Shown: piece after piece, positions 1,158-16,312 of the stretch
How the letters are laid out: every line of letters starts with the position of its first letter
Numbering within the stretch: position 1 is the first letter of the stretch
Assembly (NCBI GenBank): GCA_016765235.1
Contig: JAESQH010000240.1
Coordinates: forward strand, 1 to 36,168
Reading direction: 5' to 3'
DNA: 36,168 nt
Source: Paracoccaceae bacterium
Lineage (GTDB): Bacteria; Pseudomonadota; Alphaproteobacteria; Rhodobacterales; Rhodobacteraceae
Translations under genes and position numbers: made by a program
Notes under the pieces: generated by a model
Database searches by the model: none
Seen by the model: only the letters and a program-made list of their open reading frames with translations
Told to the model about the DNA's origin: nothing

Positions 1158-1158
1158 A

Positions 1159-2480: not shown

Positions 2481-3398
2481 TTAACTGCCAGGCAACATCT
2501 CTGTAAGGCACAGCTGCAGCAACCAATCTTTGAACACTTCCGCGGAAGGTGTCAGAACTGCGCTCTTTGGTATGACAATATGGTATGCAGATGAACTGTC
2601 GAATGTCTGTTTAAGCGGGTTCACGACGGCGCCGCTCTTGAGTTCGCTTGCGATCAAGCTTTCTTCGATGAGAGAAACCCCTAGACCATTGATCGTCGAA
2701 CTCAGTAGAAAATGGCGGTCCTCATGAAAATGGCGGTCCTCACGCATCATCTGCGTCTGAGAAGATGATAGCTCCACGTGATTATTATTAAACCACTCTA
2801 ACCACATACGTTCGTCATCTACATGCAGTAAAGTACAATTTTTTACGTCTGTAACCTCGCGGATCGGGTTGGCCTCAAGATAATTTGGGCTGCAGACAAC
2901 CGCCATTTTTCCCGGCCAAAGCCGAGTCACGGAAAAACCCTTCCAGTCTCCGCGGCCCCAATGGACACCCAAATCAGCAAAACCTTCCGGACGCTCAAGT
3001 TTTACATAAGTGTTGTTGTGGTTCTGGAATGAGAGCTGGAGGTTTGGATGTGCCTCCCACAGGCTGCCTAGACGTGCAGACAACCAGCGGCTTGCGAACA
3101 TGGGTGGCACCGCAACGCGTACTGAGTCTGTTTTGTCTGTAACCTTATTTAGTCCCGCTTGGATCGTCCTAAGACCCTGTTCAACGTGAGAGGCAAGAAC
3201 TGCCCCTTGAGGTGTCAGCACCAGACCATTTGACTTTCTTTCAAATAAAAGAGTGCAAACCTCGGTCTCTAATTTTTTGATATGGTAGCTCACAGAACTT
3301 TGACTAATGTTCAATAATCGTGCGGCGCGTGTGGTATTTTTTAATCGAGAAACCACCTCAAATACTTGAATAGAATTAAGATTCTTAACTTTCAGCAT
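2481..3398 (-). CDS. LysR-family transcriptional regulator (GcvA-like)
   Basis: N-terminal HTH (FEVVSRLKNTTRAARLLNISQSSVSYHIKKLE..LFER) plus substrate-binding domain; divergent from the ABC operon. Confidence 0.93.
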   Translation of the reverse strand: MLKVKNLNSIQVFEVVSRLKNTTRAARLLNISQSSVSYHIKKLETEVCTLLFERKSNGLVLTPQGAVLASHVEQGLRTIQAGLNKVTDKTDSVRVAVPPMFASRWLSARLGSLWEAHPNLQLSFQNHNNTYVKLERPEGFADLGVHWGRGDWKGFSVTRLWPGKMAVVCSPNYLEANPIREVTDVKNCTLLHVDDERMWLEWFNNNHVELSSSQTQMMREDRHFHEDRHFLLSSTINGLGVSLIEESLIASELKSGAVVNPLKQTFDSSSAYHIVIPKSAVLTPSAEVFKDWLLQLCLTEMLPGS

Positions 3399-3442
3399 GT
3401 TGTACCCTCTGGATTGATAGCGCGCTGTTCAATCTGTATATC

Positions 3443-3457
3443 ATCTAATAATTAGAT
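3443..3457. promoter_or_regulatory. LysR recognition box ATCTAAT-A-ATTAGAT (T-N11-A)
   Basis: Perfect 15-bp dyad in the divergent intergenic region; T3444-N11-A3456 fits the LysR consensus. Confidence 0.65.
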
Positions 3458-3546
3458 AGTCTGTGAGAATCTTTGAATTTCTAAAAGAGTTTCACGCATT
3501 GTAGGGTTTTAAATATACGCCGCTTTGATGTGGTAGGGAGAGAAAT

Positions 3547-4314
3547 ATGACGAGTGCAGTTCTGCATATTCATAAACTTTGCAAATCCTTCGGGGGTGTG
3601 CACGCGATACGGGATCTCTCTTTTGAGGTTGGGCACGGCGAGATAGTCGGGCTGATAGGCCCAAACGGATCGGGAAAATCGACGACGGTGAACGCACTAG
3701 CAGGTGTATTTTCTGCATCGTCCGGAGAAATACTTCTCGCAGGTGCTCATATTCAGAAGTTACCCGAATATGAACGCGTGGTGCTTGGGCTTACCAGGAC
3801 GTTTCAAACTGCGAATGTTTTCCCCGATTTCACAGTCCGTCAACAGGTGGAGTTGGGTTGCAATTCGACATTAAAATCGCACCCTTTGTCTTCGGTCTTT
3901 GGGATTGGCATTCACGAAGGTGAAAACGAAAGTATTGCGGCCCGTGTAGAGGATATTCTCGAGATTACTGATCTTTTGGGTGTTGCCGAAGATCTGGTCA
4001 GCACTACATCAGCGGCGCAGCAACGGTTCCTAATGATAGCCACGGCGTTGGCGGCAGAACCCAAGATTATCCTGCTTGATGAACCTGCGGCAGGGATGGT
4101 TTCACATGAACGCAAAACGCTCGGCAATTTGATCAAACGCATTCGCGATCTTGGCACATCGGTGCTGGTGATCGAACATCACATGGCACTGATCATGGAG
4201 GTCTGTGACCGCATCGTCGTGCTGAACTTCGGCTCCAAAATCGCCGAAGGCACACCTTCAGAAATTCGGGACAATAAGGCAGTCATAGATGCCTATCTGG
4301 GCGAGGCTGTATAG
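3547..4314 (+). CDS. livG: Branched-chain amino acid-type ABC transporter ATP-binding protein (LivG-like)
   Basis: Walker A GPNGSGKS, RTFQ motif, Walker B ILLDEP, IEHHM, C-terminal AYLG. Confidence 0.9.
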   Translation: MTSAVLHIHKLCKSFGGVHAIRDLSFEVGHGEIVGLIGPNGSGKSTTVNALAGVFSASSGEILLAGAHIQKLPEYERVVLGLTRTFQTANVFPDFTVRQQVELGCNSTLKSHPLSSVFGIGIHEGENESIAARVEDILEITDLLGVAEDLVSTTSAAQQRFLMIATALAAEPKIILLDEPAAGMVSHERKTLGNLIKRIRDLGTSVLVIEHHMALIMEVCDRIVVLNFGSKIAEGTPSEIRDNKAVIDAYLGEAV

Positions 4315-5016
4315 ATGTTAGAAGTTAGAAACCTACATGTTGGTTATGGTCAGATTGAGGTCATTCACGGCATTGATCTGGATGTGAACGAGGGTGAATG
4401 CGTAGCCTTAATCGGAGCTAACGGGGCAGGAAAATCTTCTACGCTCAAAGCGATCTGCGGGCTGGTCCCGGCCAAACAGGGCACGATTAAGTTCAATGGC
4501 AAGGATATCACCAACCAAAGCGGCCATTCTATCGTACGTGCAGGCATCACCATGTGCCCTGAAGGTCGGCAAGTATTTCCGCAAATGAATGTTCTGCAGA
4601 ACTTACGTATGGGGGCTTATACCCGCAAAGACGCAGATCAGGCCCTTGATGTAGAAGAAATGATGAACATGTTCCCGATCTTGCGCGAACGCGCGTCACA
4701 GGCTGCGGGAACATTGTCTGGCGGGGAGCAGGAAATGCTGGCGATTGGTCGTGCGCTGATGGCTAGACCCAAGCTCTGTATCTTTGATGAACCGTCACTT
4801 GGTTTGGCACCCAAGATCGTCGCCGAAGTTGGCGAAACGATCGCCCGGATCAAGAGCATGGGTATGACCATTTTGTTGGTCGAACAGAATTCTTTGATGG
4901 CATTACGACTGGCCGACCGGGCTTATCTCTTCGAAGCTGGAGAGATCGTTCTGGAAGGTACGGGAGAAGAGCTTCAGTCACATCCAGAAGTCGTTAAAGC
5001 CTATCTGGGCCATTGA
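4315..5016 (+). CDS. livF: ABC transporter ATP-binding protein (LivF-like)
   Basis: GANGAGKS, PEGRQVF, LSGGEQEMLAIGRALM, FDEPSLGL, VEQN. Confidence 0.92.
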   Translation: MLEVRNLHVGYGQIEVIHGIDLDVNEGECVALIGANGAGKSSTLKAICGLVPAKQGTIKFNGKDITNQSGHSIVRAGITMCPEGRQVFPQMNVLQNLRMGAYTRKDADQALDVEEMMNMFPILRERASQAAGTLSGGEQEMLAIGRALMARPKLCIFDEPSLGLAPKIVAEVGETIARIKSMGMTILLVEQNSLMALRLADRAYLFEAGEIVLEGTGEELQSHPEVVKAYLGH

Positions 5017-5079
5017 AGAGTAAGCATTGTCGCTGTGGTTTTCAGCGCCAAAACAACGTAACATGGGAGAAGAAATATA

Positions 5080-6300
5080 ATGAAATTCACTACTGTAATG
5101 AAAACTAGCCTAGCCGCACTTGCTGCGGTCACGCTTAGTGGTACAGCAGGTTGGACGGCTGAAAAGACGCTGGACATTGGTGTTAGCGATGCGCTCACCG
5201 GCGGTGCCGCCGTATATGGCCTGCCACAGGCCAACGCAGTGAAGATGGCCGCTGAGGAAATCAATGCCGCAGGCGGTGTGCAAGTGGGTGAAGATACTTA
5301 CATGCTGAACGTCATTGCGTATGACGATAAGGCTAACCCGACCGAAGCTTCAAACTCAGTCCGCAAATTGCTGGACCGTGATGGTGTGAAATACATTCTT
5401 GGCTTCTGTTGCTCAGGAGCGACAGGCGCGGTTGCGTCATTTATCGAAAATGAAGACGCGGTGATGCTAGTAGGCAATGCTGCGGAACGTTCGATCACAA
5501 CGCGTGAAATTCCTAATCTCGTGAGAACTCGCCCGCCAGCAGATTACACGGGTGCCGCAGCAGGGACGTTTGTCGCACAACAAGGTCACAAACGGGTGGC
5601 TGTACTTGGCGCATTGGAAGTTTCGTTTTACGCAAGCTATGTCGACGCCTTTGAAGCAGAGTTTATCAAAGGTGGCGGTGAAATCATTACACGTGAAGTG
5701 TTTGCCTCCAAAGACCGGGATATGACACCGCAACTGACTAAAATCCGTGCGTTGAAACCTGATGCGATCCTTGTAGTAGGTTATGTTGAGCCAGCCGCCT
5801 TTATCTATCGTCAGTCGGTTGAACTGGGTATTGATGCGGCCCGCTATGGCTTCACCAGCGGCAGTGAAGAGCAATTCTTGCGGGTTGCAACTACGGAACA
5901 GATGGAAGGCGTTTGGGACCTTCGTCCGACTGAACTGACACTTCTATCTGCGAGCGCGAGTGGCATTGCCTATCACGCGAACTATTCTGAGAAGTTCGGA
6001 ATCTCTCCATCGCCTAGTTCGCCTTATGCTTACGATCAGACATATGCACTGAAAGATGCGCTGGAAGCAGCAGGCACTGTTGAGGACACGGCCGCCGTTG
6101 CCGCCGCTTTGCGAGAATTGCCGGTTCCGACTGAGGCAGTCATGCAATATTTGCCGATCGACAACAAAATGTTTGACGAAAACGGTCAAGCGTATACCTC
6201 GAATGGCGCATTCCAGTGGCGTGATGGCAACTGGGTCTTTGTTCAAGATTTGCCCTCTGATCCTGCCGCCTATTCAGCATTTCTGAGCACATTGGACTAA
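5080..6300 (+). CDS. ABC transporter substrate-binding protein (LivJ/K-like, periplasmic binding protein type 1)
   Basis: Signal-peptide-like N-terminus, IGV..ALTGGAAVYG, INAAGGV, YDD, DMTPQLTKIRALKPD. Confidence 0.9.
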   Translation: MKFTTVMKTSLAALAAVTLSGTAGWTAEKTLDIGVSDALTGGAAVYGLPQANAVKMAAEEINAAGGVQVGEDTYMLNVIAYDDKANPTEASNSVRKLLDRDGVKYILGFCCSGATGAVASFIENEDAVMLVGNAAERSITTREIPNLVRTRPPADYTGAAAGTFVAQQGHKRVAVLGALEVSFYASYVDAFEAEFIKGGGEIITREVFASKDRDMTPQLTKIRALKPDAILVVGYVEPAAFIYRQSVELGIDAARYGFTSGSEEQFLRVATTEQMEGVWDLRPTELTLLSASASGIAYHANYSEKFGISPSPSSPYAYDQTYALKDALEAAGTVEDTAAVAAALRELPVPTEAVMQYLPIDNKMFDENGQAYTSNGAFQWRDGNWVFVQDLPSDPAAYSAFLSTLD

Positions 6301-6429
6301 GACGAAAACTGCAGCGCCGCATTCCACCAAAACGGGCAGCGGCGTTGTATCACCTTAAAATCGCGAAATTTCCTTCCCGCACGCGGATCGAGCAGCGCGG
6401 AAAATAACCGGATAAGGGGCCGTAAAACG

Positions 6430-7290
6430 ATGATCGAGATAATACAGCAAATTGTAAACGGACTTGCGATCGGGGGTATTTATGTCCTCATCGCGCTTGG
6501 TCTAACAACGGTATTCGGAATTTTGGGGATCGCCCATTTTGCGCACGGATCAGTGTCCATGTTTGGGGGGTATCTCACTTTCTTCCTGGTGGTCCAGCAG
6601 GGTTTTCCATTGGTCGCAGCGATTTTGGTCGCGCTCTTGGTGGGAATGTTGCTTGGCGTCGTGATCGAGCTTTTGGCCTACAGGCCAGTGCGCAATGCCA
6701 ACCATATCAACGCCTTCATTGTCGCGCTTGGACTAACGATGATGGTCGAAGGTGCCAACCTTCACTTCTTTGGCGCTGAACAGATTGTTATCCCAACTGA
6801 TTTCAAGCGGGTTTTCAACATCGGTGGTGTTACGATCCCCGAACTGAGGCTGTATGTGATCGTTTCGGCCGCCGCTCTGGTTATTTGTATGACACTCTTT
6901 ATTGAGCGCACCAAAACAGGTCAGGCGATCCGCGCCGTGGCCGAAAATCGCGACGCTGCAATCCTGATGGGGGTAAACGTTAACACCATCCCACTAGTGG
7001 TTTTTGCAATATCGACAATGCTGGGCGTAGCGGCAGGGGTCATGGTCGGTTCGTTGTTCGCAATCGCTCCAGGTATTGGCGAAGGTCTGGTCATCAAAGG
7101 TTTTGCGGTTCTAATCTTGGGTGGTCTTGGATCGATCCCCGGTGCAATTGTCGGAGGCATCGTCCTAGGTGTGGCCGAGGCGCTAGCCGCCGGGTTCATA
7201 TCCTCTGCCTATAAAGATGTAATTGCCTTCGCAGTGATGATTATCGTGCTGCTGGTGCGCCCACAGGGATTGTTGGGAAAAGCAACATGA
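6430..7290 (+). CDS. livH: ABC transporter permease (LivH-like)
   Basis: NGLAIGGIYVLIALGLT..FAHG, GQAIRAVAEN, LGGLGSIPGA, VRPQGLLG. Confidence 0.92.
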   Translation: MIEIIQQIVNGLAIGGIYVLIALGLTTVFGILGIAHFAHGSVSMFGGYLTFFLVVQQGFPLVAAILVALLVGMLLGVVIELLAYRPVRNANHINAFIVALGLTMMVEGANLHFFGAEQIVIPTDFKRVFNIGGVTIPELRLYVIVSAAALVICMTLFIERTKTGQAIRAVAENRDAAILMGVNVNTIPLVVFAISTMLGVAAGVMVGSLFAIAPGIGEGLVIKGFAVLILGGLGSIPGAIVGGIVLGVAEALAAGFISSAYKDVIAFAVMIIVLLVRPQGLLGKAT

Positions 7291-8243
7291 ACATCTCAGC
7301 CAAACACATTTTTTACGCTACCGCTCTATTTCTGTTCATCGCACTGCCGCAACTGATCACTGTAAAGTACTATATACATCTCAGCATTCTGGCGCTTGTC
7401 TGGGTGATCGCGTCACAGGGACAGAACCTTATCCAAGGTTATACGGGCTATGTTTCCATCGTTCAGGCAGGTTTCATGGGCATTGGTGCATATAGCACAG
7501 CGCTGATGGGGATGCATTATGGCTTGCCAGTGTGGCTGACTATTATGCTTGCACCACTTGTGACGGCAGTCTTTGCAATTGCGACCGGTTATCCAAGCTT
7601 GCGGGTTAAGGGACATTATTTCGCGATTGTCACTCTAGCCTTCAACATGGTGATTTTTATCGTTCTTCTGAACTTTACAGATCTGACAAATGGCGAGGCT
7701 GGGTTGACCGGCATCCCGAAACCCGGCAATGGCAAAGATGGGTTAATTAACTTTGGCGACCGGGAAGTGTACTACTACTTTGTTTTGATTGTCGCTGTTC
7801 TGATGACAGTACTGGCGGCTCTCATTGCACGCTCTCGCATCGGTCAAATTCTAGTGGCGATCCGGCAGAATGAGGACCTTGTTGGCTCCATTGGCATCGC
7901 GGCATGGAAATACAAACTTTTTGCATTTGTCACCAGCGCGATGTTCGCGGGATTGGCAGGCGCGCTTTACGCTCACTACCAAAGCTTCATCAACCCCGAG
8001 ATATTCGGAGTGGCTCAGTCTCTTGACGCAATTCTCGCAGTGATCATTGGTGGCTCGGGTACAATTGCAGGCCCGGTCATCGGCTCCTTTATTGTGGTAT
8101 TCCTACCTGAGTACCTTCGTTTTGCCGACAGTTTCCGCCTGATCCTCTACGGGCTGATCCTTGTGCTGGCGACGATATTCATGCCGCGCGGTATCGCGGG
8201 TGTTGCCAGCGATCTCCACAAGAAATTGGTGCGACGCAAATGA
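7287..8243 (+). CDS. livM: ABC transporter permease (LivM-like)
   Basis: NLIQGYTGYVS, LRVKGHYFAIVTLAF, AIRQNE, IIGGSGT, PRGIAG; ATGA overlap with livH. Confidence 0.92.
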   Translation: MNISAKHIFYATALFLFIALPQLITVKYYIHLSILALVWVIASQGQNLIQGYTGYVSIVQAGFMGIGAYSTALMGMHYGLPVWLTIMLAPLVTAVFAIATGYPSLRVKGHYFAIVTLAFNMVIFIVLLNFTDLTNGEAGLTGIPKPGNGKDGLINFGDREVYYYFVLIVAVLMTVLAALIARSRIGQILVAIRQNEDLVGSIGIAAWKYKLFAFVTSAMFAGLAGALYAHYQSFINPEIFGVAQSLDAILAVIIGGSGTIAGPVIGSFIVVFLPEYLRFADSFRLILYGLILVLATIFMPRGIAGVASDLHKKLVRRK

Positions 8244-9394: not shown

Positions 9395-9405
9395 GAAGGT
9401 AAAAA

Positions 9406-10422
9406 ATGCGTGTTTTTCAAATTCAAGGCGACTGGAGCTTCGACAACCTCGAATTAGCCGAGCGTCAAGCCCCCAGTCCAGAACGCAACCAGGTTCTGAT
9501 TTCCATGCGGGTTGCGTCCCTGAATGCGCGCGATCTGATCGTGCCCGAACGAGGGTATGGCCGCGCAACTGGCAACCTCCCGCTGATCCCTGTCTCAGAT
9601 GGGGTGGGTGAAATCGTCGAAATCGGTGAAGACGTGACGCGCGTTGCTGTCGGGGATCGTGTCTGTCCGACTTACTTTCAGAATTGGACATCTGGTGCGC
9701 CGAGCCCTGCCCGATTTGCCTCGGCTCTTGGTGGTCCGCTGGATGGAGTTATGGCCGATCTGGTCTGTCTTTCCGAAGAAGGCGTCGTCAAAGTGCCCGA
9801 ATATCTCAGCGATTTAGAAGCTGCCACGTTGCCTTGCGCAGCCCTTACGGCTTGGAGTGCAATTTCGACGCATGGCCAGACACAGGCAAGCGACCGTATT
9901 TTGATTCAAGGCACCGGAGGTGTTGCACTGTTTGCGCTGGCTTTTGCCAAACTGCACGGCGCGCATGTGACGGTCATTTCCTCCAGCGATGACAAGTTGG
10001 AGCAAGTCCGCAAAATGGGCGCGGACGCCACGATTAACTATCGCGAGACCCCGGATTGGGCGCGGGCCAGCCGCGAGTTTACAGCTAGTAAAGGCGGATA
10101 CGACAACATTATTGAACTTGGCGGCGAGGCGACCCTTCCACTGTCGCTGCGCGCTGTTCGACCGGGTGGCACGCTGTCGATGATTGGTGTTCTATCGGGT
10201 CTGAATCTCAACGCCTCGCTCGGCCCGATTGTGGCTCGCCAATTGCGGTTGCAAGGGGTTACTGTTGGGCATCGCGACGGGTTTGAAGCGATGCTTGCTG
10301 CGATGGCTCAGCATCAAATACATCCGGTTCTGGGGAAGGAATTCGCGTTCGAAGACTTGAAACCGGCGATGAACCATATTCGCGCCGGTGGTGGCTTCGG
10401 CAAGACTACGATCCGGTTCTGA
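9406..10422 (+). CDS. MDR-superfamily NAD(P)-dependent oxidoreductase (zinc-type ADH-like / quinone reductase-like)
   Basis: SLNARD, PLIPVSDGVGE, EAATLPCAALTAW, Rossmann GTGGV, FGK; catalytic Zn ligands are not evident. Confidence 0.88.
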   Translation: MRVFQIQGDWSFDNLELAERQAPSPERNQVLISMRVASLNARDLIVPERGYGRATGNLPLIPVSDGVGEIVEIGEDVTRVAVGDRVCPTYFQNWTSGAPSPARFASALGGPLDGVMADLVCLSEEGVVKVPEYLSDLEAATLPCAALTAWSAISTHGQTQASDRILIQGTGGVALFALAFAKLHGAHVTVISSSDDKLEQVRKMGADATINYRETPDWARASREFTASKGGYDNIIELGGEATLPLSLRAVRPGGTLSMIGVLSGLNLNASLGPIVARQLRLQGVTVGHRDGFEAMLAAMAQHQIHPVLGKEFAFEDLKPAMNHIRAGGGFGKTTIRF

Positions 10423-10424
10423 AC

Positions 10425-11984
10425 ATGACCAACGACATATTTCATCCAAGACATTACGCAAAAAAATCGCCTGACGCACTAGCATACCGTATGTGTGCAA
10501 CGGGCGAGGACGTTACCTTTCTTCAACTTGAAACGCGCGCAAACCAGGGTGCACATCTATTTCGTGCAGCTGGCCTTCATGTTGGCGATCACATCGTTAT
10601 CATGATGGAGAATAGGCGTGAGTTCCTTGAGATCTGCTTTGCCGCGGATCGTGCGGGGCTGTACTACACCACTGTCAGCACGCACCTGACTTTCGATGAA
10701 ATCAGCTACATCATCGCCGATTGCGGGGCGCGGGTCGTTGTAACATCCGACCATTTCTCAGAGACCAACCGCAAGTTGCATGAGACGCCCGTTCCCGGAG
10801 CACGTCTATTTATAGTGGGCGAACCGACGCGTGGATTTGAAAGCTGGTCCGAAGCTGCACAATCCCAACCCAGAACGCCGATACCGGATGAGGTTCAGGG
10901 CCTCGACATGTTATATTCTTCGGGCACAACCGGGCGGCCCAAGGGGATCAAATGGCCTCTGACGGGCGAAAAACCAGGCGGGAGGACGATGCTAATTGAC
11001 CTTCTGACCTCGCTTTTCGGTTATGATAGCGATACGCGGTATCTATCCCCTGCACCACTTTATCACGCTGCCCCGCTAAGGCACACGATGGTCACGATCA
11101 AAATGGGTGGCACTGCCTTCATAATGACGAAGTTTGACGCCCAGAACGCGTTAGAGATCATTGAGAAAGAGAACATCACCCATAGCCAATGGGTGCCAAC
11201 AATGTTCGTCCGGCTTCTCAAACTTCCGCGGGAGCTGCGCGAATCCTTTAATATTTCCTCCATGAAAATGGCTGTGCACGCAGCCGCCCCGTGCCCGGTG
11301 AGCGTCAAACATCAGATGATCAACTGGTGGGGGCCGATCATCCATGAGTACTACGCGGGCACGGAAAACAACGGTTTCACATCGATCAACACCGAAGAGT
11401 GGCTGATCCACGAAGGGTCCGTTGGAACTGCGAAGTTAGGTGTTCTACATATCTGCGATGAAGCTGGCAACGAGTTGCAAAATGGCCACGAAGGTGAAAT
11501 CTTTTTCGAAAATGGCCACCAGTTTGAATACTATAACGACCCGGAAAAAACAGAGGCCTGCACCAATGAGTTCGGTTGGACCTCTTTGGGAGATATCGGG
11601 CGAAAGGATGCCGAAGGGTATCTCTTCCTAACGGATCGAAAATCTTTCGTGATCATCTCGGGCGGCGTGAATATTTACCCACAGGAAACCGAAAATGTGC
11701 TGCTTGGGCACCCTTTGGTGCTGGATGCTGCCGTCATCGGCGTGCCGAATGAAGATTTTGGCGAAGAGGTAAAAGCAGTGGTCCAGCTAGTCGAGAACCA
11801 TGAAAGGTCCCCAGATTTGGAGGCGGCGCTGATCGAGTACTGTCGTTCGCAGCTTTCTAGCATCAAATGTCCCAGAACCATTGAGTTTCGAAAGACGCTG
11901 CCGAGAGCGGCCACCGGCAAACTATACAAACGCAAATTGCGTGACGAATACTGGACACAATCATCGTCGATATCCGGCGGCTAA
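10425..11984 (+). CDS. Acyl-CoA synthetase (AMP-forming)
   Basis: MLYSSGTTGRPKG, YYAGTE, GD.G..D..GY..LTDR, ISGGVNIYPQE, catalytic TGKL. Confidence 0.93.
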   Translation: MTNDIFHPRHYAKKSPDALAYRMCATGEDVTFLQLETRANQGAHLFRAAGLHVGDHIVIMMENRREFLEICFAADRAGLYYTTVSTHLTFDEISYIIADCGARVVVTSDHFSETNRKLHETPVPGARLFIVGEPTRGFESWSEAAQSQPRTPIPDEVQGLDMLYSSGTTGRPKGIKWPLTGEKPGGRTMLIDLLTSLFGYDSDTRYLSPAPLYHAAPLRHTMVTIKMGGTAFIMTKFDAQNALEIIEKENITHSQWVPTMFVRLLKLPRELRESFNISSMKMAVHAAAPCPVSVKHQMINWWGPIIHEYYAGTENNGFTSINTEEWLIHEGSVGTAKLGVLHICDEAGNELQNGHEGEIFFENGHQFEYYNDPEKTEACTNEFGWTSLGDIGRKDAEGYLFLTDRKSFVIISGGVNIYPQETENVLLGHPLVLDAAVIGVPNEDFGEEVKAVVQLVENHERSPDLEAALIEYCRSQLSSIKCPRTIEFRKTLPRAATGKLYKRKLRDEYWTQSSSISGG

Positions 11985-12191
11985 ACGATGACAATCAAAA
12001 CCGAATTCACCGGCGTTCAGGTCGAAACCTCAATCCGAGAGGAAGGCTGCGCCATGAGAACTACGAACACGCGTCCATTAGCAATGAATACGCTGACCGT
12101 AATCCCACTTGCGGGGCTGGTCGACAAGCGACGTTAATGGGCTGCTTGCGCCTTCGGCGTCAGCAGGGTTTGAATTTCAGGAGTATTGACT

Positions 12192-13067
12192 ATGCAGATC
12201 GGCTTTATAGGCCTTGGGAATATGGGGGCACCGATGGCTGCAAATCTCGCGGCAGCCGGGCATTCGGTCAGCGGCTTTGATCCGGTCGGGGACTACCCCG
12301 ACGGAGTAACTCAAGTTGTCAGCGCACGGCTGGCTTGTGAAAATGCTGAAGTGGTATTCCTGATGTTGCCAAACGGCGCAATTGTTAGAAGTGTCTCGGA
12401 GGACATCCTGCCAGTGATGATAAAAGGCGCGATTCTTCTCGATTGTTCGACAATCGATGTCGCGACCAGCGAGTACGTCTACCAGACCGCGCGGGATGTG
12501 GGTGTTTCAGCCCTGGATGCGCCGGTTTCCGGCGGGATCAAAGGGGCAGCCGACGGCAAGCTTACATTCATGGTTGGAGGATCGGTAGAAGGTTTTGCAA
12601 AATCCCAACACCTCTTTGATATCATGGGGAACAAAACTGTACACTGCGGAAAAGCGGGTGCAGGCCAGGCTGCCAAGCTATGCAACAATATGATCCTCGG
12701 GATCACCATGTCTGGCACTTGCGAAGCTTTTGCTCTGGCCGACAAGTTGGGGCTTGACCGGCAAAAATTGTACGACGTTGTCAGCACATCCTCGGGGTAC
12801 AGTTGGTCCATGAATGCCTACTGTCCTGCTCCAGGTGTCGGTCCTGTGTCACCCGCGGACAACGACTATGCGCCAGGATTCGCTGCCGAACTAATGCTCA
12901 AGGATCTACGCCTCAGCCAGCAAGCGGCAACCTTGGTGGATGCTGATACGCCGATGGGTCAGGCTGTCTGTGAGCTCTATGAAAATTTTATCGAAAAGGG
13001 GGATGGCTTGGGTAAAGACTTCAGCGCCCTACTGCCTTTTTTCGCGGATCGAGGCAGGACAATTTGA
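12192..13067 (+). CDS. mmsB: 3-hydroxyisobutyrate dehydrogenase (beta-hydroxyacid dehydrogenase family)
   Basis: IGFIGLGNMGAPMA, LDAPVSGG, AAKLCNNM, WSMNAYCPAPGV, GFAAELMLKDL. CAGGAG SD precedes ATG 12192. Confidence 0.9.
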   Translation: MQIGFIGLGNMGAPMAANLAAAGHSVSGFDPVGDYPDGVTQVVSARLACENAEVVFLMLPNGAIVRSVSEDILPVMIKGAILLDCSTIDVATSEYVYQTARDVGVSALDAPVSGGIKGAADGKLTFMVGGSVEGFAKSQHLFDIMGNKTVHCGKAGAGQAAKLCNNMILGITMSGTCEAFALADKLGLDRQKLYDVVSTSSGYSWSMNAYCPAPGVGPVSPADNDYAPGFAAELMLKDLRLSQQAATLVDADTPMGQAVCELYENFIEKGDGLGKDFSALLPFFADRGRTI

Positions 13068-13139
13068 GGTCGACAGCAAGGGGTCTGGTTTTTTATCACA
13101 CAGCGGCGGTCGACGAATGTGCCAATAAAGGGAGTGGAA

Positions 13140-14885
13140 ATGGAAGTTTCGTCAGAAAATGACTATCTTGAATTCTGGAAGAACGTTGCGGAAAACAATC
13201 CGTTTTTCACGGTACTTGTCCAGAGCCAAGCCAAAGATCTGGCCGAGCAGCTGAGTATAACCAACGACACATTTTCCGCCATGTCTCCGGCAACAACAAC
13301 CGAGTGGATTCAAAACGTGCTTAAATATCAGAGCGAAATGGCACAGCTTTGGTTAGGTAGTCTTGCCAATACCAAAGAGGCGACGCCAGAGCCGTCCAGA
13401 GATCCCCGTTTCCGGGGGGATGCCTGGAATGAAGGGGTGTTCCCGTTCTTGCGCATGTCCTATGAAATTGCAGCCAATACCATGGTGGAAATGGCAGATA
13501 AAGCAGGACTGCCTGCGCATGAGCAGCGCAAATTCAGTTTTTACGCGCGTGTCGCAGCAGACGCGATGGCGCCTTCGAACTATCCATCGACTAACCCCGA
13601 GGTTCTCAAGCTGGCGCAGGAGACACAGGGGCAAAGCCTGGTGGATGGATTTCAGAATGTTCTCCGGGATTTGAAAAAAGGCTATATCACGACCAGTGAC
13701 GAATCCGCTTTCGAAGTTGGGAAGAACCTCGCAACGACGCCGGGTTCTGTGGTGTTCCGAAACGAACTGGTCGAGTTGATCCAGTACAAACCGATGACCG
13801 ACCAAGTGAACAGCACGCCAATCCTGATAGTGCCACCATGTGTGAACAAGTTTTACATATTCGATATCAACGAAAAAAAATCGATGGTGCGGTATTTGCT
13901 GGAGCATGGCAACAGCGTCTATATCGTCGCGTGGAGGAACCCTGGCGCAGAACTGGTGGACTACGGGTGGGACGAATACATACTGAAGGGCATTATCTCT
14001 GCCTTCGAAGCTTGTTCCGAAGTGGATAAGGCCGAGCAAATCCACATGATGTCTTGGTGCAATGGCGGAACGATGCAGTTGGCCGCTCTGTCGGTTTTTC
14101 CAGATGAGCTGAACAAGAAAGTCGCATCGGCCACATTCCTATCCTCGATGATTGACTTCTCCGATCCGGGCGGAATCGAAGTTTTTATCGATAAGCCGCA
14201 GTTCAAGGTATACAAGAATCGAATGAAAACAGCCAAAGTCGTGCCTGGTCGGGACATCGCGCAGGCCATGGCAATGCTGCATGTCAATGAATCGATCTGG
14301 AATTTCGTGGTGAACAATTACCTGATGGGCAAGGCGTCACGTCCGTTTGACATTCTGCATTGGAACGCTGACACCTCGAACCTGCCGGTGGCCTGGTTTA
14401 GCTATTACATCCAAGAGATGTATGTCGCAAACAAGCTGATGGAGGCCGGTGCGCTGACTCTGCTCGGGCGCCCAGTGGATACCCGAAATATCAAAGTCCC
14501 GTGCTATTTCGTGGCGGCAACAGATGACCATATCGTGCCCTGGAAGACTTCGTACGTCGCGACAGCGCTTGTAACGGGTGATACTGAATTCGTCCTGACG
14601 GATGGAGGACATGTTTCTGGCACTGTCATCAACCATCCCGTAAAAAGCCGCCGCAGCTTTCTGACCGATGGTCAAAATGATCAGGACGCGGATGGCTGGA
14701 AAGAGACCGCATCGAAGACCGACGGTAGCTGGTGGAACCATTGGCTCGAGTGGCTGGGTGAAAATAGTTCAGACAAAACACGCACGGCACCCAACAAACT
14801 GGGCAGCAAGGCCTATCCGCCCTTGGCTGACGCGCCGGGAACCTATGTTGTAGAGCAGGTACCGCAAGACGGAAGACTGTTTTGA
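13140..14885 (+). CDS. phaC: Polyhydroxyalkanoate synthase (class I/II size)
   Basis: DPRF..DAW, APSN...NPE, F.VG.NLATTPG.VV.RNEL.ELIQY, P.LIVPPCVNKFYIFD, HWNAD, DHIVPW, GHV. Lipase box reads SWCNGG. GGAG SD before ATG 13140. Confidence 0.92.
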   Translation: MEVSSENDYLEFWKNVAENNPFFTVLVQSQAKDLAEQLSITNDTFSAMSPATTTEWIQNVLKYQSEMAQLWLGSLANTKEATPEPSRDPRFRGDAWNEGVFPFLRMSYEIAANTMVEMADKAGLPAHEQRKFSFYARVAADAMAPSNYPSTNPEVLKLAQETQGQSLVDGFQNVLRDLKKGYITTSDESAFEVGKNLATTPGSVVFRNELVELIQYKPMTDQVNSTPILIVPPCVNKFYIFDINEKKSMVRYLLEHGNSVYIVAWRNPGAELVDYGWDEYILKGIISAFEACSEVDKAEQIHMMSWCNGGTMQLAALSVFPDELNKKVASATFLSSMIDFSDPGGIEVFIDKPQFKVYKNRMKTAKVVPGRDIAQAMAMLHVNESIWNFVVNNYLMGKASRPFDILHWNADTSNLPVAWFSYYIQEMYVANKLMEAGALTLLGRPVDTRNIKVPCYFVAATDDHIVPWKTSYVATALVTGDTEFVLTDGGHVSGTVINHPVKSRRSFLTDGQNDQDADGWKETASKTDGSWWNHWLEWLGENSSDKTRTAPNKLGSKAYPPLADAPGTYVVEQVPQDGRLF

Positions 14886-15742
14886 TGCAAACCGTAAAAA
14901 AGAAGGCCGCTGAACATGCTATCGCACTCTATGAGGGAGCGTTTCATACGCAACAGATTAATGGTTTAGGCATCCGCATCTATTCGCGTAGGGCTGATAG
15001 TGCGGCACCACCATTGCTAATATGCAATGGGTTGGGGCAATCCGTGGAAACCCTGTTTCCGCTGATTGAACAGTTCCGGGACCGTGAAATCGTTGCCTTC
15101 GACGTGCCAGGTGTCGGTCATTCGGATATCCCCGAAAACCGCCTGAGCATTCCGGAGTACGCACGCATCACTGCACAAATCATGGAGCAATTGGGACATG
15201 ACATCTATGATGTATTGGGTATTTCCTGGGGCGGTGCTCTTGCGCAGCAACTGGCCCATGACTATCCGGATCGGTGTCGAAAGCTAGTTCTTTCCATCTC
15301 GTCAGCCGGCGGTCCGGGCAGCTGGTGGGGTTCACCGATAGCTCAATTCGAGATATTTTTCCCATTGCGCTACACCAGCAAGACCTATGGCAACATGATT
15401 GGCCCATGGATGTATGGAGGTGAGGCAATTTTTCAGCCTGAAATGTTCAAGGAATACGCCAAACATGCCATCGCACCCTCGGCAGAAGGGTATTTTGGGC
15501 AGGTGCAGGCGATCTGTAGCTGGACCAGTCTGCCTTGGCTGCACAATCTTAAGCAACCTACCCAAGTCATTGCTGGGGCTTTTGACGCACTTATTCCAAT
15601 CGCCAATCAGTTACTGTTAGCGTCGCGTCTACCTAATGCGCGACTCAAAGTTTATCAGGATGGGCATCTGCTGATGTATTCGCTTCGTGAAGAAGTTGGA
15701 AACTTGATGGTCAGTTTTCTGGACGAAGTCGGCGCACGGTAG
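14885..15742 (+). CDS. phaZ: Intracellular PHA depolymerase (alpha/beta hydrolase, Pseudomonas PhaZ-like)
   Basis: PLLICNGLG, FDVPGVGHS, lipase box GISWGG.LAQQ.A, WTSLPWLH, D..IP..N, GHL; TGATG coupling to phaC. Confidence 0.82.
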   Translation: MQTVKKKAAEHAIALYEGAFHTQQINGLGIRIYSRRADSAAPPLLICNGLGQSVETLFPLIEQFRDREIVAFDVPGVGHSDIPENRLSIPEYARITAQIMEQLGHDIYDVLGISWGGALAQQLAHDYPDRCRKLVLSISSAGGPGSWWGSPIAQFEIFFPLRYTSKTYGNMIGPWMYGGEAIFQPEMFKEYAKHAIAPSAEGYFGQVQAICSWTSLPWLHNLKQPTQVIAGAFDALIPIANQLLLASRLPNARLKVYQDGHLLMYSLREEVGNLMVSFLDEVGAR

Positions 15743-15897
15743 TCATAGGTAGATTGGCTAAGTTTGTCTTGTTTGAAAGCCCGGTCTGGGAAACTACTAG
15801 AGAGTTTTCGCGTCCGCAGGGAAATCCCGTTTCCCACCCAAATTGGCAGTTTCATATGGTTACTCGAAGAGTGAGAAACGCCTGGTTTTTCTCTGTG

Positions 15898-16149: not shown

Positions 16150-16312
16150 TTGTTGTCTCCTGATTTTCAAGACGTTCTGCCAGCCGTCCGGCGCGCTCGC
16201 CGGAGCGGCGCAGGAACAGAAGGAACAGTGATATTGTCAGGGCGATTGCCGCCCACTTTCCGACGGCCAGCATTAACCGGCTGCCGGCGAACCATCCGAT
16301 GAGCGCTCCCAT
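16058..16312 (-). CDS. Putative i-spanin (Rz-like): N-terminal TM helix plus coiled-coil
   Basis: From ATG 16312: TM segment WAAIALTISLFLLFL, then ERAGRLAERLE..RRMLEAGARRPR.R.ELVDRLRDGEF. Confidence 0.6.
   Translation of the reverse strand: MGALIGWFAGSRLMLAVGKWAAIALTISLFLLFLRRSGERAGRLAERLENQETTNEIERRMLEAGARRPRNRGELVDRLRDGEF

What the first reader, a model, noticed from the sequence alone, without database searches (positions are those of the whole stretch)
2481..15742. Plasmid-borne uptake, CoA-activation and polyester operon: transporter and catabolic genes run straight into phaC-phaZ
Seen: eleven co-directional genes downstream of one LysR box, many translationally coupled: Liv-type ABC, acyl-CoA dehydrogenase, MDR reductase, acyl-CoA ligase, MmsB-like dehydrogenase, PhaC, PhaZ. 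No phaA, phaB, phasin or phaR is in the block. Established: Rhodobacteraceae usually carry chromosomal pha genes fed by PhaA/PhaB, and a phaC-phaZ tandem is the Pseudomonas layout. Inference: this may be a dedicated, inducer-controlled route that imports one specific organic acid, makes its hydroxyacyl-CoA without PhaAB and stores it as an unusual polyester. Candidate monomers are branched 3-hydroxyacids, 3-hydroxypropionate, or a sulfur-containing acid from DMSP turnover. The substrate cannot be read from sequence. This is my best candidate for an undescribed system here.
Basis: partly seen in the sequence, partly recalled or inferred. Interest (0 to 1): 0.72.

Follow-up and report, generated by a model that had tools for sequence, protein, structure and literature searches.

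The report
Polyester synthase pair appended to catabolic operon
A small marine Rhodobacteraceae plasmid joins a common uptake and CoA-activation operon to a polyester synthase and esterase pair that elsewhere sits inside valine-breakdown operons, which makes this synthase clade a testable candidate for making poly(3-hydroxyisobutyrate), whose genes are not known.

Summary
The eleven co-directional genes, the single LysR box and the plasmid setting are all real.

The block is a composite of two units:
- **Module 1** (LysR | livGF-SBP-livHM-ACAD-MDR-ligase) is an autonomous operon with many roseobacter homologues. It ends after the ligase in four of six genomes examined.
- **Module 2** (mmsB-phaC-hydrolase) carries a separate cassette.

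The PhaC is neither Pseudomonas class II nor a canonical class I enzyme. It belongs to a distinct clade that scores below the class I cut-off. In Rhodobacteraceae this clade is always followed by a PhaZ-like hydrolase. It is repeatedly embedded in valine/isobutyrate catabolic operons in alpha-, beta- and gammaproteobacteria.

The fusion of module 1 to phaC-hydrolase recurs in Pseudorhodobacter turbinis, with a 31-nt junction.

Best reading (inferred, about 0.45):
1. PhaC polymerises a primary-alcohol 3-hydroxyacyl-CoA, either 3-hydroxyisobutyryl-CoA or 3-hydroxypropionyl-CoA.
2. The hydrolase releases the free acid.
3. MmsB oxidises it.

The substrate of module 1 is unresolved. No evidence was found for a DMSP-derived acid. 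No paper found in the held library describes this clade. Natural poly(3-hydroxyisobutyrate) was reported in 2022 without genes.

The parts
2481..3398 (-). LysR-family (GcvA-like) regulator, divergent from the operon
   Evidence: Pfam HTH_1 + LysR_substrate. Best NCBIfam hit is GcvA, below its cut-off. The orthologue sits in the same position in P. turbinis (55% identity) and in L118-L120.
3443..3457 (.). LTTR box ATCTAATAATTAGAT (T-N11-A, perfect 7-1-7 palindrome) in the divergent promoter region 3399-3546
   Evidence: Read. It is the only match in the window; 4 of 100 shuffles reach as many matches. The ATC-N9-GAT core is conserved in all six module-1 promoters aligned.
3547..8243 (+). Liv/HAAT-type ABC importer: livG 3547-4314, livF 4315-5016, SBP 5080-6300, livH 6430-7290, livM 7287-8243
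   Evidence: Pfam ABC_tran+BCA_ABC_TP_C, Peripla_BP_6 and BPD_transp_2. 67-88% identical, in the same order, in P. seriniphilus p420573 and P. turbinis. The SBP has no close liganded PDB relative.
8240..9394 (+). Atypical acyl-CoA dehydrogenase-family protein. It is not the isobutyryl-CoA dehydrogenase of valine operons.
   Evidence: Three ACAD Pfam domains. Only 28-30% identical to the IBDs of valine clusters. It has Asp (VDGSTEML) where the IBDs have the catalytic-base Glu (LEGTNEIM), and this is conserved in four orthologues.
9406..10422 (+). Zinc-free MDR (quinone-oxidoreductase / enoyl-reductase type), NAD(P)H-dependent
   Evidence: Pfam ADH_N + ADH_zinc_N. The sequence has SLNARD where Zn-ADHs carry the Cys/His ligands. 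The 120 best homologue clusters listed are 77-85% identical, and most of those that carry a name are roseobacters. The AcuI equivalog is not met (49 bits against a 440 cut-off).
10425..11984 (+). Acyl-CoA ligase (FadD4-like); last gene of module 1
   Evidence: AMP-binding + AMP-binding_C. FadD4 model 611 bits, below the 850 cut-off. Module 1 ends here in L087, L118, L119 and L120.
11985..12191 (+). 207-nt spacer between the two modules. It holds a hairpin at 12142-12166 followed by GGUUUGAAUUU, then the RBS GGAG at 12180-12183.
   Evidence: Sequence. The fold shows a 5+5-bp stem with two bulges. The consensus scan finds no sigma-70-like promoter and no terminator in the spacer on the + strand. 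The spacer has no similarity to any related locus.
12192..13067 (+). mmsB, 3-hydroxyisobutyrate dehydrogenase
   Evidence: TIGR01692 HIBADH, 339.8 bits, above the 291.6 cut-off. 67% identical to the mmsB that precedes phaC in Yoonia. 66-68% identical in L093 and L095.
13140..14885 (+). PhaC, member of a distinct class-I-like clade of PHA synthases
   Evidence: PhaC_N + Abhydrolase_1. TIGR01838 546.9 bits, below the 622.65 cut-off; TIGR01839 407.9, below 855.4. C314/D470/H498 are invariant. It aligns with 5XAV, 5HZ2 and 9KNJ at E about 1e-100. The lipase box is SWCNGG. The clade is shown in the NJ tree.
14885..15742 (+). PhaZ-like alpha/beta hydrolase, translationally coupled to phaC
   Evidence: Abhydrolase_1. 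Best family hit is TIGR02240 PHA depolymerase, 211 bits, below the 250.6 cut-off. GISWGG Ser115, Asp235 and His262 are invariant in the Rhodobacteraceae orthologues. It lies directly after phaC in every Rhodobacteraceae-clade locus that holds both genes.
15743..18256 (.). Decayed region and IS that end the block. There is no real gene at 15754-16302. It also holds a 21-nt perfect inverted repeat (16712-16765), a LysR N-terminal fragment (about 17030-17245) and a DDE transposase (17384-18256).
   Evidence: orf182 has no family, is Arg-rich and was not called by gene callers. Inverted repeat. HTH_1 fragment. DDE_Tnp_1.
30463..34747 (.). Plasmid backbone: Rep_3 initiator 30463-31749 (-), ParA 32293-33699 (+), ParB 33659-34747 (+)
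   Evidence: Pfam Rep3_N/Rep3_C, AAA_31/CbiA/ParA and ParB_N.

Best explanation
The block is a fusion of two units on a Rep_3/ParAB plasmid of a marine Rhodobacteraceae bacterium.

**Unit 1.** This is a LysR-controlled operon common in roseobacters. It imports an unidentified carboxylic acid through a Liv-type ABC system, activates it to the CoA thioester with the ligase, and modifies it with an atypical ACAD and a zinc-free MDR reductase.

**Unit 2 (mmsB-phaC-hydrolase).** This belongs to a PhaC clade whose usual genomic home is the valine/isobutyrate degradation operon.

**Proposed mechanism (inferred, not shown):**
1. The acyl-CoA is desaturated to a 2-enoyl-CoA of the methacrylyl/acrylyl type.
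2. A housekeeping crotonase hydrates it to a primary-alcohol 3-hydroxyacyl-CoA, either 3-hydroxyisobutyryl-CoA or 3-hydroxypropionyl-CoA.
3. PhaC polymerises this into a polyester, freeing CoA and pulling the reactive enoyl-CoA pool down.
4. The coupled PhaZ-like hydrolase releases the free 3-hydroxy acid from the polymer.
5. MmsB oxidises that acid to (methyl)malonate semialdehyde for central metabolism.

The pair would therefore act as a carbon and CoA buffer on a short branched-acid catabolic route. It would not be a PhaAB-fed PHB store.

**Shown:** gene identities, catalytic residues, the conserved LTTR box, the modular structure, the recurrence of both kinds of linkage, and the clade structure.

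**Inferred:** the monomer, polymer formation, the direction of flux and co-transcription.
For: PhaC clade:
- Rhodobacteraceae, Variovorax-group and Neptuniibacter-group PhaCs (47-75% identity) form one clade. It is separate from generic class I enzymes and from canonical alphaproteobacterial PhaC1.
- All five clade members scored fall below the class I cut-off (541-616 bits against 622.65). Canonical PhaC1 scores 733.

Valine-operon context in three classes:
- Yoonia and L093/L095: LysR | mmsA-IBD-mmsB-phaC-hyd-ECH.
- Ruegeria and Sedimentitalea: BCKDH E1a/E1b/E2/E3-IBD-phaC-hyd.
- Neptuniibacter: phaC-hydrolase-mmsA-IBD-ECH-HIBCH-mmsB.
- Variovorax brevis: CoA-transferase-IBD-ECH-HIBCH-phaC.
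- Betaproteobacterial MAG L121: LysR | mmsA-IBD-mmsB-ECH-HIBCH-phaC-hydrolase.
- By contrast, the other 78 class-I PhaC loci (36-44% identity) in the same scan lack the hydrolase. None shows a run of valine-catabolic genes; they show only scattered low-identity hits.

Hydrolase partners:
- The partners in the three lineages are not orthologous. This points to independent recruitment of an esterase.

Linkage to module 1:
- mmsB lies directly upstream of phaC both here and in Yoonia-type operons (67% identity).
- Module 1 fused to phaC-hyd recurs in P. turbinis.

Chemical feasibility:
- 3-hydroxy-2-methylpropionyl-CoA from valine degradation is polymerised by a class I PhaC in engineered C. necator (PMC11117859).
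- Natural poly(3-hydroxyisobutyrate) exists. It was found in a Comamonas-dominated, isobutyrate-fed enrichment, and its genes are unknown (PMC8763783).
- MmsA enzymes accept both malonate and methylmalonate semialdehyde (PMC6572756).
Against: - There is no biochemical or transcript evidence of any kind.
- The window has no hydratase, mmsA or HIBCH.
- The window ACAD is not an IBD orthologue and carries Asp at the catalytic-base position. It may not make methacrylyl-CoA at all.
- Module 1 stands alone in four of six genomes.
- The PhaC-hydrolase pair stands alone in four loci (L001, L091, L096, L097). In Profundibacter, the closest relative at 75% identity, it lies beside canonical phaC1-phasin-phaR-phaZ rather than valine genes.
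- The 207-nt spacer holds a hairpin followed by a weak U-tract, which could attenuate read-through.
- Gene neighbourhood does not fix the monomer. Valine operons also end in propionyl-CoA, a 3-hydroxyvalerate precursor.
Confidence: 0.45

Rival explanations
1. This is an ordinary second short-chain PHA synthase/depolymerase pair. PhaC makes P(3HB) or P(3HB-co-3HV) from (R)-3-hydroxyacyl-CoAs supplied by host PhaA/PhaB. Placing it behind catabolic operons only couples storage to carbon surplus, for example from propionyl-/acetyl-CoA produced by branched-chain acid breakdown. On this plasmid the junction is simply a recombination or IS mosaic.
For: - The catalytic core is fully class-I-like, matching solved class I enzymes at E about 1e-100.
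- In Profundibacter the pair lies directly beside the canonical pha cluster.
- Thiolase genes lie near phaC in Variovorax and Neptuniibacter.
- Module 1 and the pair each occur alone.
- The window is rich in IS and decayed genes.
- A 207-nt spacer with a hairpin separates the two modules.
Against: - The clade is consistently distinct from canonical PhaC1, which coexists with it in Profundibacter at 32% identity.
- The valine-operon embedding recurs in alpha-, beta- and gammaproteobacteria, with mmsB or HIBCH directly adjacent.
- No PhaB/PhaA accompanies it in most of these operons.
- Non-orthologous esterases were recruited repeatedly.
- The module-1 fusion arose or persisted in two genera.
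Confidence: 0.28
2. The pair acts as a non-orthologous bypass of 3-hydroxyisobutyryl-CoA hydrolase. In Rhodobacteraceae, PhaC plus the hydrolase together carry out the CoA-releasing step of valine/isobutyrate (or propionate via 3-HP) catabolism. They do so through enzyme-bound oligomers or a transient polymer, and no real storage occurs. The hydrolase may even act directly as a thioesterase.
For: - Every Rhodobacteraceae valine-type cluster seen with the pair lacks an HIBCH gene in the cluster (L083, L084, L085, L093, L095).
- The beta and gamma clusters have HIBCH, with a different hydrolase or none.
- L099 shows ECH-IBD-mmsB-hydrolase with no phaC in between.
- mmsB is directly adjacent.
Against: - HIBCH could be encoded elsewhere in those genomes; this was not testable here.
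- L099 ends 219 nt after the hydrolase, so phaC could follow it.
- A roughly 65-kDa synthase is a costly way to hydrolyse a thioester.
- Beta and gamma relatives keep HIBCH and PhaC side by side.
Confidence: 0.15
3. The whole eleven-gene block is one dedicated, inducer-controlled pathway for a particular exotic acid, for example a DMSP-derived sulfur acid, whose own hydroxyacyl-CoA is stored as an unusual polyester.
For: - There is one conserved LTTR box and no promoter-like site in the spacer.
- The same fusion occurs in P. turbinis.
- The ACAD is atypical and the MDR is of the enoyl-reductase type, both with unknown substrates.
Against: - Module 1 is autonomous in four of six genomes.
- The PhaC clade's dominant context is valine catabolism.
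- The AcuI equivalog is not met.
- PDB hits for the ligase and the ACAD give no link to DMSP enzymes.
- There is no hydratase in the block.
Confidence: 0.07

Closest known systems
Pseudomonas putida/oleovorans pha locus (phaC1-phaZ-phaC2-phaD) and its synthase/depolymerase 'PHA cycle'
   Same: A synthase gene is directly followed by a roughly 285-aa alpha/beta-hydrolase depolymerase-type gene. The hydrolase's best family match is the Pseudomonas PhaZ model TIGR02240, over its full length. Its Ser/Asp/His spacing (115/235/262) resembles that recalled for P. putida PhaZ; that comparison is from memory, not a test.
   Different: The synthase is not class II (408 bits against an 855 cut-off). There is only one synthase, with no phaD/F/I. 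The hydrolase is below the equivalog cut-off (211 against 250.6). The context is catabolic operons for short acids, not fatty-acid-derived medium-chain monomers.
Class I PHA synthases (Cupriavidus necator PhaC, PDB 5HZ2/5T6O; Chromobacterium PhaC, 5XAV; full-length 9KNJ)
   Same: The domain architecture, length and Cys-Asp-His triad match, with E about 1e-100 to these chains.
   Different: It scores below the curated class I cut-off, as does every clade member tested. It is 32% identical to the canonical Rhodobacteraceae PhaC1. The lipase box is [SG]-W-C-N-G-G, with a clade-specific Asn after the nucleophile, instead of G-[FY]-C-[VIL]-G-G. There are no phaA/phaB/phaR/phasin neighbours.
Valine/isobutyrate degradation operon (e.g. 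C. necator H16 acaD-mmsA3-hbdH-crt-hibH, H16_B1192-B1188; PMC6572756)
   Same: mmsB is a bona fide HIBADH. The PhaC clade's relatives sit inside exactly such operons.
   Different: The window has only mmsB from that pathway. Its ACAD is not the IBD orthologue. The classical operons have no PHA synthase.
Natural poly(3-hydroxyisobutyrate) from an isobutyrate-fed, Comamonas-dominated enrichment (Vermeer et al. 2022, PMC8763783), and engineered 3H2MP-containing PHA (PMC11117859)
   Same: The proposed monomer, and its proposed origin from valine-pathway 3-hydroxyisobutyryl-CoA, are the same. One sub-lineage of the clade is from Variovorax, which I recall to be in the same family as Comamonas.
   Different: Those studies identified a polymer, not a dedicated synthase gene. 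Here there are genes but no polymer data.
Autonomous roseobacter operon LysR | livGF-SBP-livHM-ACAD-MDR-ligase (Roseobacter litoralis Och 149, Roseovarius faecimaris, Aestuariivita boseongensis, P. seriniphilus p420573)
   Same: Module 1 of the window is an orthologue, with the same order, 67-85% identity to the P. seriniphilus copy (MDR 78-85% across these genomes), and the same LTTR box.
   Different: Those copies end after the ligase. Only the window and P. turbinis continue into phaC-hydrolase. No literature on its substrate was found.

Membership tests
Class I PHA synthase (NCBIfam TIGR01838) | PhaC_N domain plus alpha/beta-hydrolase domain in one ~60-65 kDa subunit | tested here: met
   PF07167 (E 1.2e-57) and PF00561, 581-588 aa.
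Class I PHA synthase (NCBIfam TIGR01838) | Catalytic Cys-Asp-His triad | tested here: met
   C314, D470 and H498 are invariant in 17 aligned sequences. Their columns align with identical C, D and H residues in the solved class I synthase 5XAV.
Class I PHA synthase (NCBIfam TIGR01838) | Canonical lipase box G-X-C-X-G-G | tested here: not met
   The window has S-W-C-N-G-G. The Rhodobacteraceae clade has [SG]WCNGG, whereas canonical enzymes have G[FY]C[VIL]GG.
Class I PHA synthase (NCBIfam TIGR01838) | Score at or above the curated family cut-off | tested here: not met
   546.9 bits against 622.65. Clade relatives score 541-616; canonical PhaC1 scores 733.
Class I PHA synthase (NCBIfam TIGR01838) | Polymerises (R)-3-hydroxybutyryl-CoA | not testable with these tools
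   Needs an enzyme assay or heterologous expression.
Class II (Pseudomonas) PHA synthase and locus | TIGR01839 score above the cut-off | tested here: not met
   407.9 bits against 855.4.
Class II (Pseudomonas) PHA synthase and locus | phaC1-phaZ-phaC2-phaD(-phaFI) gene order | tested here: not met
   There is a single synthase. No second phaC is found in the window, and the hydrolase is followed by decayed DNA and an IS.
Intracellular PHA depolymerase PhaZ (TIGR02240) | Score above the equivalog cut-off | tested here: not met
   211 bits against 250.6, although it is the best family hit and covers model positions 4-265 of 276. Orthologues score 165-190.
Intracellular PHA depolymerase PhaZ (TIGR02240) | Serine-hydrolase triad with a G-X-S-X-G nucleophile elbow | tested here: met
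   GISWGG Ser115, Asp235 and His262 are invariant in seven orthologues.
Intracellular PHA depolymerase PhaZ (TIGR02240) | Encoded next to a PHA synthase | tested here: met
   It overlaps the phaC stop codon here. It is adjacent to phaC in every Rhodobacteraceae-clade locus that holds both genes.
Intracellular PHA depolymerase PhaZ (TIGR02240) | Hydrolyses native polyester | not testable with these tools
   Needs an esterase versus thioesterase assay.
Valine/isobutyrate catabolic operon (mmsA, IBD, ECH, HIBCH, mmsB) | 3-hydroxyisobutyrate dehydrogenase present | tested here: met
   TIGR01692, 339.8 bits, above 291.6.
Valine/isobutyrate catabolic operon (mmsA, IBD, ECH, HIBCH, mmsB) | mmsA, enoyl-CoA hydratase and HIBCH present | tested here: not met
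   tblastn with Yoonia, Neptuniibacter and Variovorax references finds none in the window.
Valine/isobutyrate catabolic operon (mmsA, IBD, ECH, HIBCH, mmsB) | Isobutyryl-CoA-dehydrogenase-type ACAD | tested here: not met
   28-30% identity to the IBDs. Asp replaces the Glu of the LEGT motif.
LysR-type-regulated divergent operon | Divergent LTTR gene plus a T-N11-A box in the shared promoter | tested here: met
   The box lies at 3443-3457, is unique in the window, and is conserved in six orthologous promoters.
Single transcription unit (operon) over all eleven genes | Continuous transcript across 11985-12191 and 13068-13139 | not testable with these tools
   Only DNA metagenome runs hold the sequence. 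The consensus scan finds no promoter or terminator in the spacer, but a hairpin with a weak U-tract is present.
Plasmid | Replication initiator and partition genes on the same molecule | tested here: met
   Rep_3, ParA and ParB.
Plasmid | Circular closure | tested here: inconclusive
   The window shows no terminal overlap. The source scaffold is 36.7 kb.
Acrylate/DMSP catabolism (AcuI, DmdB/C) | MDR is an AcuI equivalog | tested here: not met
   NF051456, 49 bits, against a 440 cut-off.
Acrylate/DMSP catabolism (AcuI, DmdB/C) | Ligase and ACAD orthologous to DmdB and DmdC | not tested
   No DmdB/DmdC reference sequences were at hand. PDB searches returned only generic ligases and ACADs.

The most novel reading that the evidence does not exclude
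In marine Rhodobacteraceae the PhaC-hydrolase pair replaces 3-hydroxyisobutyryl-CoA hydrolase. Valine, isobutyrate and related short-acid catabolism would then pass obligatorily through a polyester, either poly(3-hydroxyisobutyrate) or poly(3-hydroxypropionate). This PhaC clade would be the natural dedicated synthase for alpha-methylated or primary-alcohol PHAs, and the clade-specific Asn next to the catalytic Cys would contribute to that specificity.
Probability: 0.15. Interest if true: 0.85.

Novelty: new variant of a known kind. Interest (0 to 1): 0.6.

Why it matters
**A missing gene.** Poly(3-hydroxyisobutyrate) was first seen in nature in 2022, and no gene has been assigned to it. Alpha-methylated PHAs are sought for their thermal and crystallisation properties, but engineered strains incorporate only 0.9-1.7 mol% 3H2MP. 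A PhaC clade that evolution has placed inside valine/isobutyrate operons in three proteobacterial classes is a concrete candidate. It is also present in cultured strains: P. turbinis S12M18, Sedimentitalea nanhaiensis and Variovorax brevis.

**Ecology.** If confirmed, abundant marine roseobacters would buffer branched-acid or 3-HP catabolism through a polyester. It would also show a plasmid moving this capacity together with an uptake operon.

**A second open problem.** Module 1 has many roseobacter homologues (the 120 best MDR clusters listed are 77-85% identical), yet it has no known substrate.

Tried and rejected
1. The genome-contig scan with a PhaC alignment was swamped by generic class I synthases. 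I recovered contexts through the look-up of encoding contigs, a hydrolase-based metagenome scan and PLSDB tblastn.
2. A megablast of the block against plasmids found only the P. seriniphilus ACAD-MDR stretch.
3. RNA evidence: the look-up of sequencing runs returned only DNA metagenomes, so co-transcription could not be tested.
4. PDB searches for the SBP, MDR, ACAD and ligase gave no liganded or named close relative. The substrate of module 1 stays unknown.
5. The Cupriavidus taiwanensis MDR homologue context is IS-shattered and uninformative.
6. I searched for remnants of ECH, mmsA, HIBCH or IBD in the spacer and downstream of the hydrolase. None was found; the only remnant is a LysR N-terminal fragment.
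7. orf182 (15754-16302) was rejected as a gene.
8. Literature searches for this clade, for phaC in valine operons and for module 1 found no description.
9. The 'Pseudomonas-type class II' reading was rejected on family scores.
10. The DMSP sulfur-acid reading found no support, but it is not formally excluded.
11. I did not predict structures. Sequence matches to solved class I synthases are already at E about 1e-100, and a fold would not reveal the monomer.

Full report
**1. Observation**

The ORF map and the Pfam and NCBIfam scans confirm eleven co-directional genes behind a divergent LysR gene:
- livG, livF, a Liv-type binding protein, livH and livM
- an acyl-CoA dehydrogenase-family protein
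- an MDR reductase
- an AMP-forming acyl-CoA ligase
- mmsB, which passes the HIBADH cut-off (339.8 bits against 291.6)
- a PhaC
- a 285-aa alpha/beta hydrolase

Several junctions overlap or abut: livG/livF, livH/livM, livM/ACAD, MDR/ligase and phaC/hydrolase. The larger gaps are 63, 129, 207 and 72 nt.

The divergent promoter carries one perfect LTTR box, ATCTAATAATTAGAT, at 3443-3457. It is unique in the window.

No thiolase, PhaB-like SDR, PhaR, phasin or PHB_depo_C depolymerase is present anywhere in the window.

The window also encodes a Rep_3 initiator, ParA and ParB, so 'plasmid-borne' is reasonable.

The sequence comes from a 36.7-kb metagenome scaffold. Overlapping 12-22-kb stretches recovered from three contigs differ from the window by 2-3 nt. 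Runs that hold it are labelled subsurface, marine and seawater metagenomes.

The 182-aa ORF after the hydrolase is not a gene. The block ends in decayed DNA, a LysR fragment and an IS.

**2. The block is two modules**

Module 1 is LysR | livGF-SBP-livHM-ACAD-MDR-ligase. It occurs in the same order, and ends after the ligase, in four places:
- a Paracoccus seriniphilus plasmid, at 67-85% amino-acid identity
- the chromosome of Roseobacter litoralis Och 149
- the chromosome of Roseovarius faecimaris
- a 41-kb genomic contig of Aestuariivita boseongensis

The 120 best MDR homologue clusters listed are 77-85% identical, and most of those that carry a name are roseobacters. The LTTR box is conserved in all six promoters aligned.

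Module 1 is therefore an autonomous unit common in roseobacters, and its substrate is unknown. Three features are worth recording:
- The MDR lacks zinc ligands, so it is of the quinone-oxidoreductase/enoyl-reductase type.
- The ACAD is only 28-30% identical to isobutyryl-CoA dehydrogenases.
- The ACAD carries Asp where those enzymes have the catalytic-base Glu, and this is conserved in four orthologues.

PDB searches gave no informative relatives.

**3. The PhaC-hydrolase pair**

The PhaC has the full class-I architecture and the Cys-Asp-His triad. It nevertheless scores below the class I cut-off (546.9 against 622.65) and far below class II (408 against 855).

Its relatives fall into three groups:
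- 87 clusters at 50-75% identity; those that carry a name are nearly all from Rhodobacteraceae genera
- a Neptuniibacter group at 48-51%
- a Variovorax group at 45-49%

In a rough NJ tree these three groups form one clade. It is separate from generic beta/gamma class I enzymes and from canonical alphaproteobacterial PhaC1.

Every clade member tested is below the class I cut-off, whereas the canonical Profundibacter PhaC1 scores 733.

The Rhodobacteraceae subgroup has a lipase box [SG]WCNGG. The Asn after the nucleophile is specific to that subgroup.

The hydrolase's best family match is the Pseudomonas PhaZ model, but it scores below the cut-off (211 against 250.6). It keeps a GISWGG Ser, an Asp and a His. 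It directly follows phaC in every Rhodobacteraceae-clade locus that holds both genes.

**4. Genomic context of the clade**

This is the key result.

| Organism or locus | Gene order |
|---|---|
| Yoonia; metagenome contigs L093 and L095 | LysR \| mmsA-IBD-mmsB-phaC-hyd-ECH (mmsA passes the MMSDH cut-off) |
| Ruegeria, Sedimentitalea | Leu/Val dehydrogenase, AsnC regulator, four BCKDH genes, IBD, then phaC-hyd |
| Neptuniibacter | phaC and a hydrolase lead into mmsA-IBD-ECH-HIBCH-mmsB |
| Variovorax brevis | CoA-transferase-IBD-ECH-HIBCH-phaC |
| Betaproteobacterial MAG L121 | LysR \| mmsA-IBD-mmsB-ECH-HIBCH-phaC-hydrolase |
| Profundibacter (closest relative, 75%) | beside canonical phaC1-phasin-phaR-phaZ |
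| L001, L091, L096, L097 | pair stands alone |

The other 78 class-I PhaC loci (36-44% identity) fetched in the same scan lack the hydrolase. None shows a run of valine-catabolic genes; they show only scattered low-identity hits.

The hydrolases that follow phaC in the three lineages are not orthologous. This suggests that an esterase partner was recruited independently more than once.

**5. Is the window's fusion a one-off?**

It is not. The 1.58-Mb replicon of Pseudorhodobacter turbinis S12M18 has LysR | livGF-SBP-livHM-ACAD-MDR-ligase at 55-88% identity. After the ligase come 31 nt, an AAGGAG ribosome-binding site, phaC (60%) and the hydrolase (57%). There is no mmsB between them.

The window's PhaC is closer to Profundibacter's (75%) than to P. 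turbinis's (60%), although the module-1 proteins of the two are 67-88% identical. The two modules therefore have different histories, and the junctions may have arisen separately.

However, the link is the minority state for both modules.

**6. Mechanism**

The following is inferred.

The common denominator of all contexts is a pathway that produces short acyl-CoAs and desaturates them. mmsB or HIBCH lies next to phaC.

The valine intermediate 3-hydroxyisobutyryl-CoA carries a primary alcohol, as 3-hydroxypropionyl-CoA does. Three published findings make the chemistry plausible:
- A class I PhaC polymerises it in engineered C. necator once the 3-hydroxyisobutyrate dehydrogenase is deleted (PMC11117859).
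- Natural poly(3-hydroxyisobutyrate) has been found in a Comamonas-dominated, isobutyrate-fed culture, with no gene assigned (PMC8763783).
- MmsA enzymes accept both malonate and methylmalonate semialdehyde (PMC6572756).

I therefore propose three steps:
1. The PhaC polymerises 3-hydroxyisobutyryl-CoA or 3-HP-CoA made by the upstream route plus a housekeeping hydratase.
2. The coupled hydrolase returns the free acid.
3. MmsB oxidises it.

This would be a carbon and CoA buffer that also drains reactive enoyl-CoA. Confidence is about 0.45.

**7. Rivals**

- **Ordinary PHB/PHBV pair placed under catabolic control, or simply hitch-hiking (0.28).** Support comes from the class-I-like core, the Profundibacter context, nearby thiolases and the mosaic, IS-rich plasmid.
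- **Non-orthologous bypass of 3-hydroxyisobutyryl-CoA hydrolase, without real storage (0.15).** The Rhodobacteraceae valine clusters that carry the pair lack HIBCH in the cluster, whereas the beta and gamma clusters keep it. L099 shows ECH-IBD-mmsB-hydrolase.

**8. What could not be settled**

- **Transcription.** Only DNA metagenomes hold the sequence. The 207-nt spacer has no consensus promoter or terminator. It does have a 5+5-bp hairpin followed by GGUUUGAAUUU just before the mmsB ribosome-binding site.
- **The substrate of module 1.**
- **The absence of a hydratase.** It means the block alone cannot make a 3-hydroxyacyl-CoA unless the imported acid is already hydroxylated.

**9. Novelty and verdict**

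Nine searches of the held library found no description of this PhaC clade, of phaC inside valine operons, or of module 1.

The parts are known kinds: a PHA synthase, an esterase, mmsB and a Liv-type importer. What appears to be undescribed is the clade, its systematic embedding in valine/isobutyrate catabolism, and its plasmid-borne fusion to an uptake operon. I rate it a new variant of a known kind, with interest 0.6.

It is right about an unusual, PhaAB-independent polyester route and about branched 3-hydroxy acids as candidate monomers. It is wrong about the Pseudomonas affinity and about the block being a single dedicated system.

Noticed in passing
window 19351-23610: A CBASS-type defence operon: a SMODS cyclase (20714-22072), an E2-like protein (21984-22601) and a patatin effector (22549-23610). 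It is preceded on the other strand by a Peptidase_M78/HTH pair (19351-20570), which resembles a CapP/CapH-type regulator pair. The annotation comes from precomputed Pfam hits only.
   Followed up: no
window 144-1755 and 25452-27172: Two AbiE-type toxin-antitoxin pairs (AbiEii + DUF6088/AbiEi). The first AbiEii is split into two ORFs (144-623 and 645-1250), so it is probably a pseudogene. A Tle1-like phospholipase fragment lies at 1973-2410.
   Followed up: no
window 23793-25082 and 34850-36010: Two AAA_14/DUF4143 ATPase genes lie on the same small plasmid. Short tRNA-synthetase and WGR domain fragments lie at about 18551-19181, next to the IS. Overall the replicon is rich in defence genes and gene debris.
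   Followed up: no
window 8240-9394 (and orthologues L116 8273-9406, L118 8873-9997, L087 5034-6179): The module-1 ACAD has Asp (VDGSTEML) at the position of the catalytic-base Glu of isobutyryl-CoA dehydrogenases (LEGTNEIM). This is conserved in all four orthologues. I recall that nitroalkane oxidase uses an Asp at this position. The enzyme may not be a conventional acyl-CoA dehydrogenase.
   Followed up: partly
window 3399-11984; L087, L116, L118, L119, L120: Module 1 (LysR | livGF-SBP-livHM-ACAD-MDR-ligase) is found in five other genomes examined, with a conserved LTTR box. The 120 best MDR homologue clusters listed are 77-85% identical. No substrate or paper could be found. It is an uncharacterised uptake and catabolic system in its own right.
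   Followed up: partly
window 14059-14076 (PhaC residues 312-317); A1 and the alignment: The Rhodobacteraceae subgroup of the PhaC clade has Asn directly after the catalytic Cys ([SG]WCNGG). All other groups, including the Variovorax and Neptuniibacter relatives, have Val, Ile or Leu there.
   Followed up: partly
L092 11821-12720; L121 10598-11683; window 14885-15742: The alpha/beta hydrolases that follow this PhaC clade in gamma-, beta- and alphaproteobacteria are mutually unrelated beyond the fold: 23% identity over the full-length alignment for window versus L092, and only short local matches of 28-33% for the other two pairs. This suggests repeated independent recruitment of an esterase partner.
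   Followed up: partly
L099 4587-8272: A metagenome contig shows ECH-IBD-mmsB-hydrolase (54% identical to the window hydrolase) with no phaC between mmsB and the hydrolase. The contig ends 219 nt later, so a downstream phaC cannot be excluded.
   Followed up: partly
L103-L114 (soil and sediment metagenome contigs): More distant hydrolase relatives (35-42%) again sit next to PhaC homologues, together with acyl-CoA ligase and ACAD genes. Examples are ligase-phaC-ACAD-hydrolase in L105 and ACAD-ligase-phaC-hydrolase in L108. The ligase/ACAD/synthase/esterase combination may be a broader theme.
   Followed up: no
window 16712-16765: A perfect 21-nt inverted repeat (TTGTGCTCTTAATTGTGAAAT ... ATTTCACAATTAAGAGCACAA, 12 nt apart) lies in the non-coding stretch between the hydrolase and the LysR fragment/IS. 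Its function is unknown.
   Followed up: no
whole window; L088-L090: Overlapping 12-22-kb stretches from three contigs (two ENA metagenome assemblies and one Logan run) differ from the window by 2-3 substitutions. Runs holding the sequence are labelled subsurface, marine and seawater metagenomes.
   Followed up: partly
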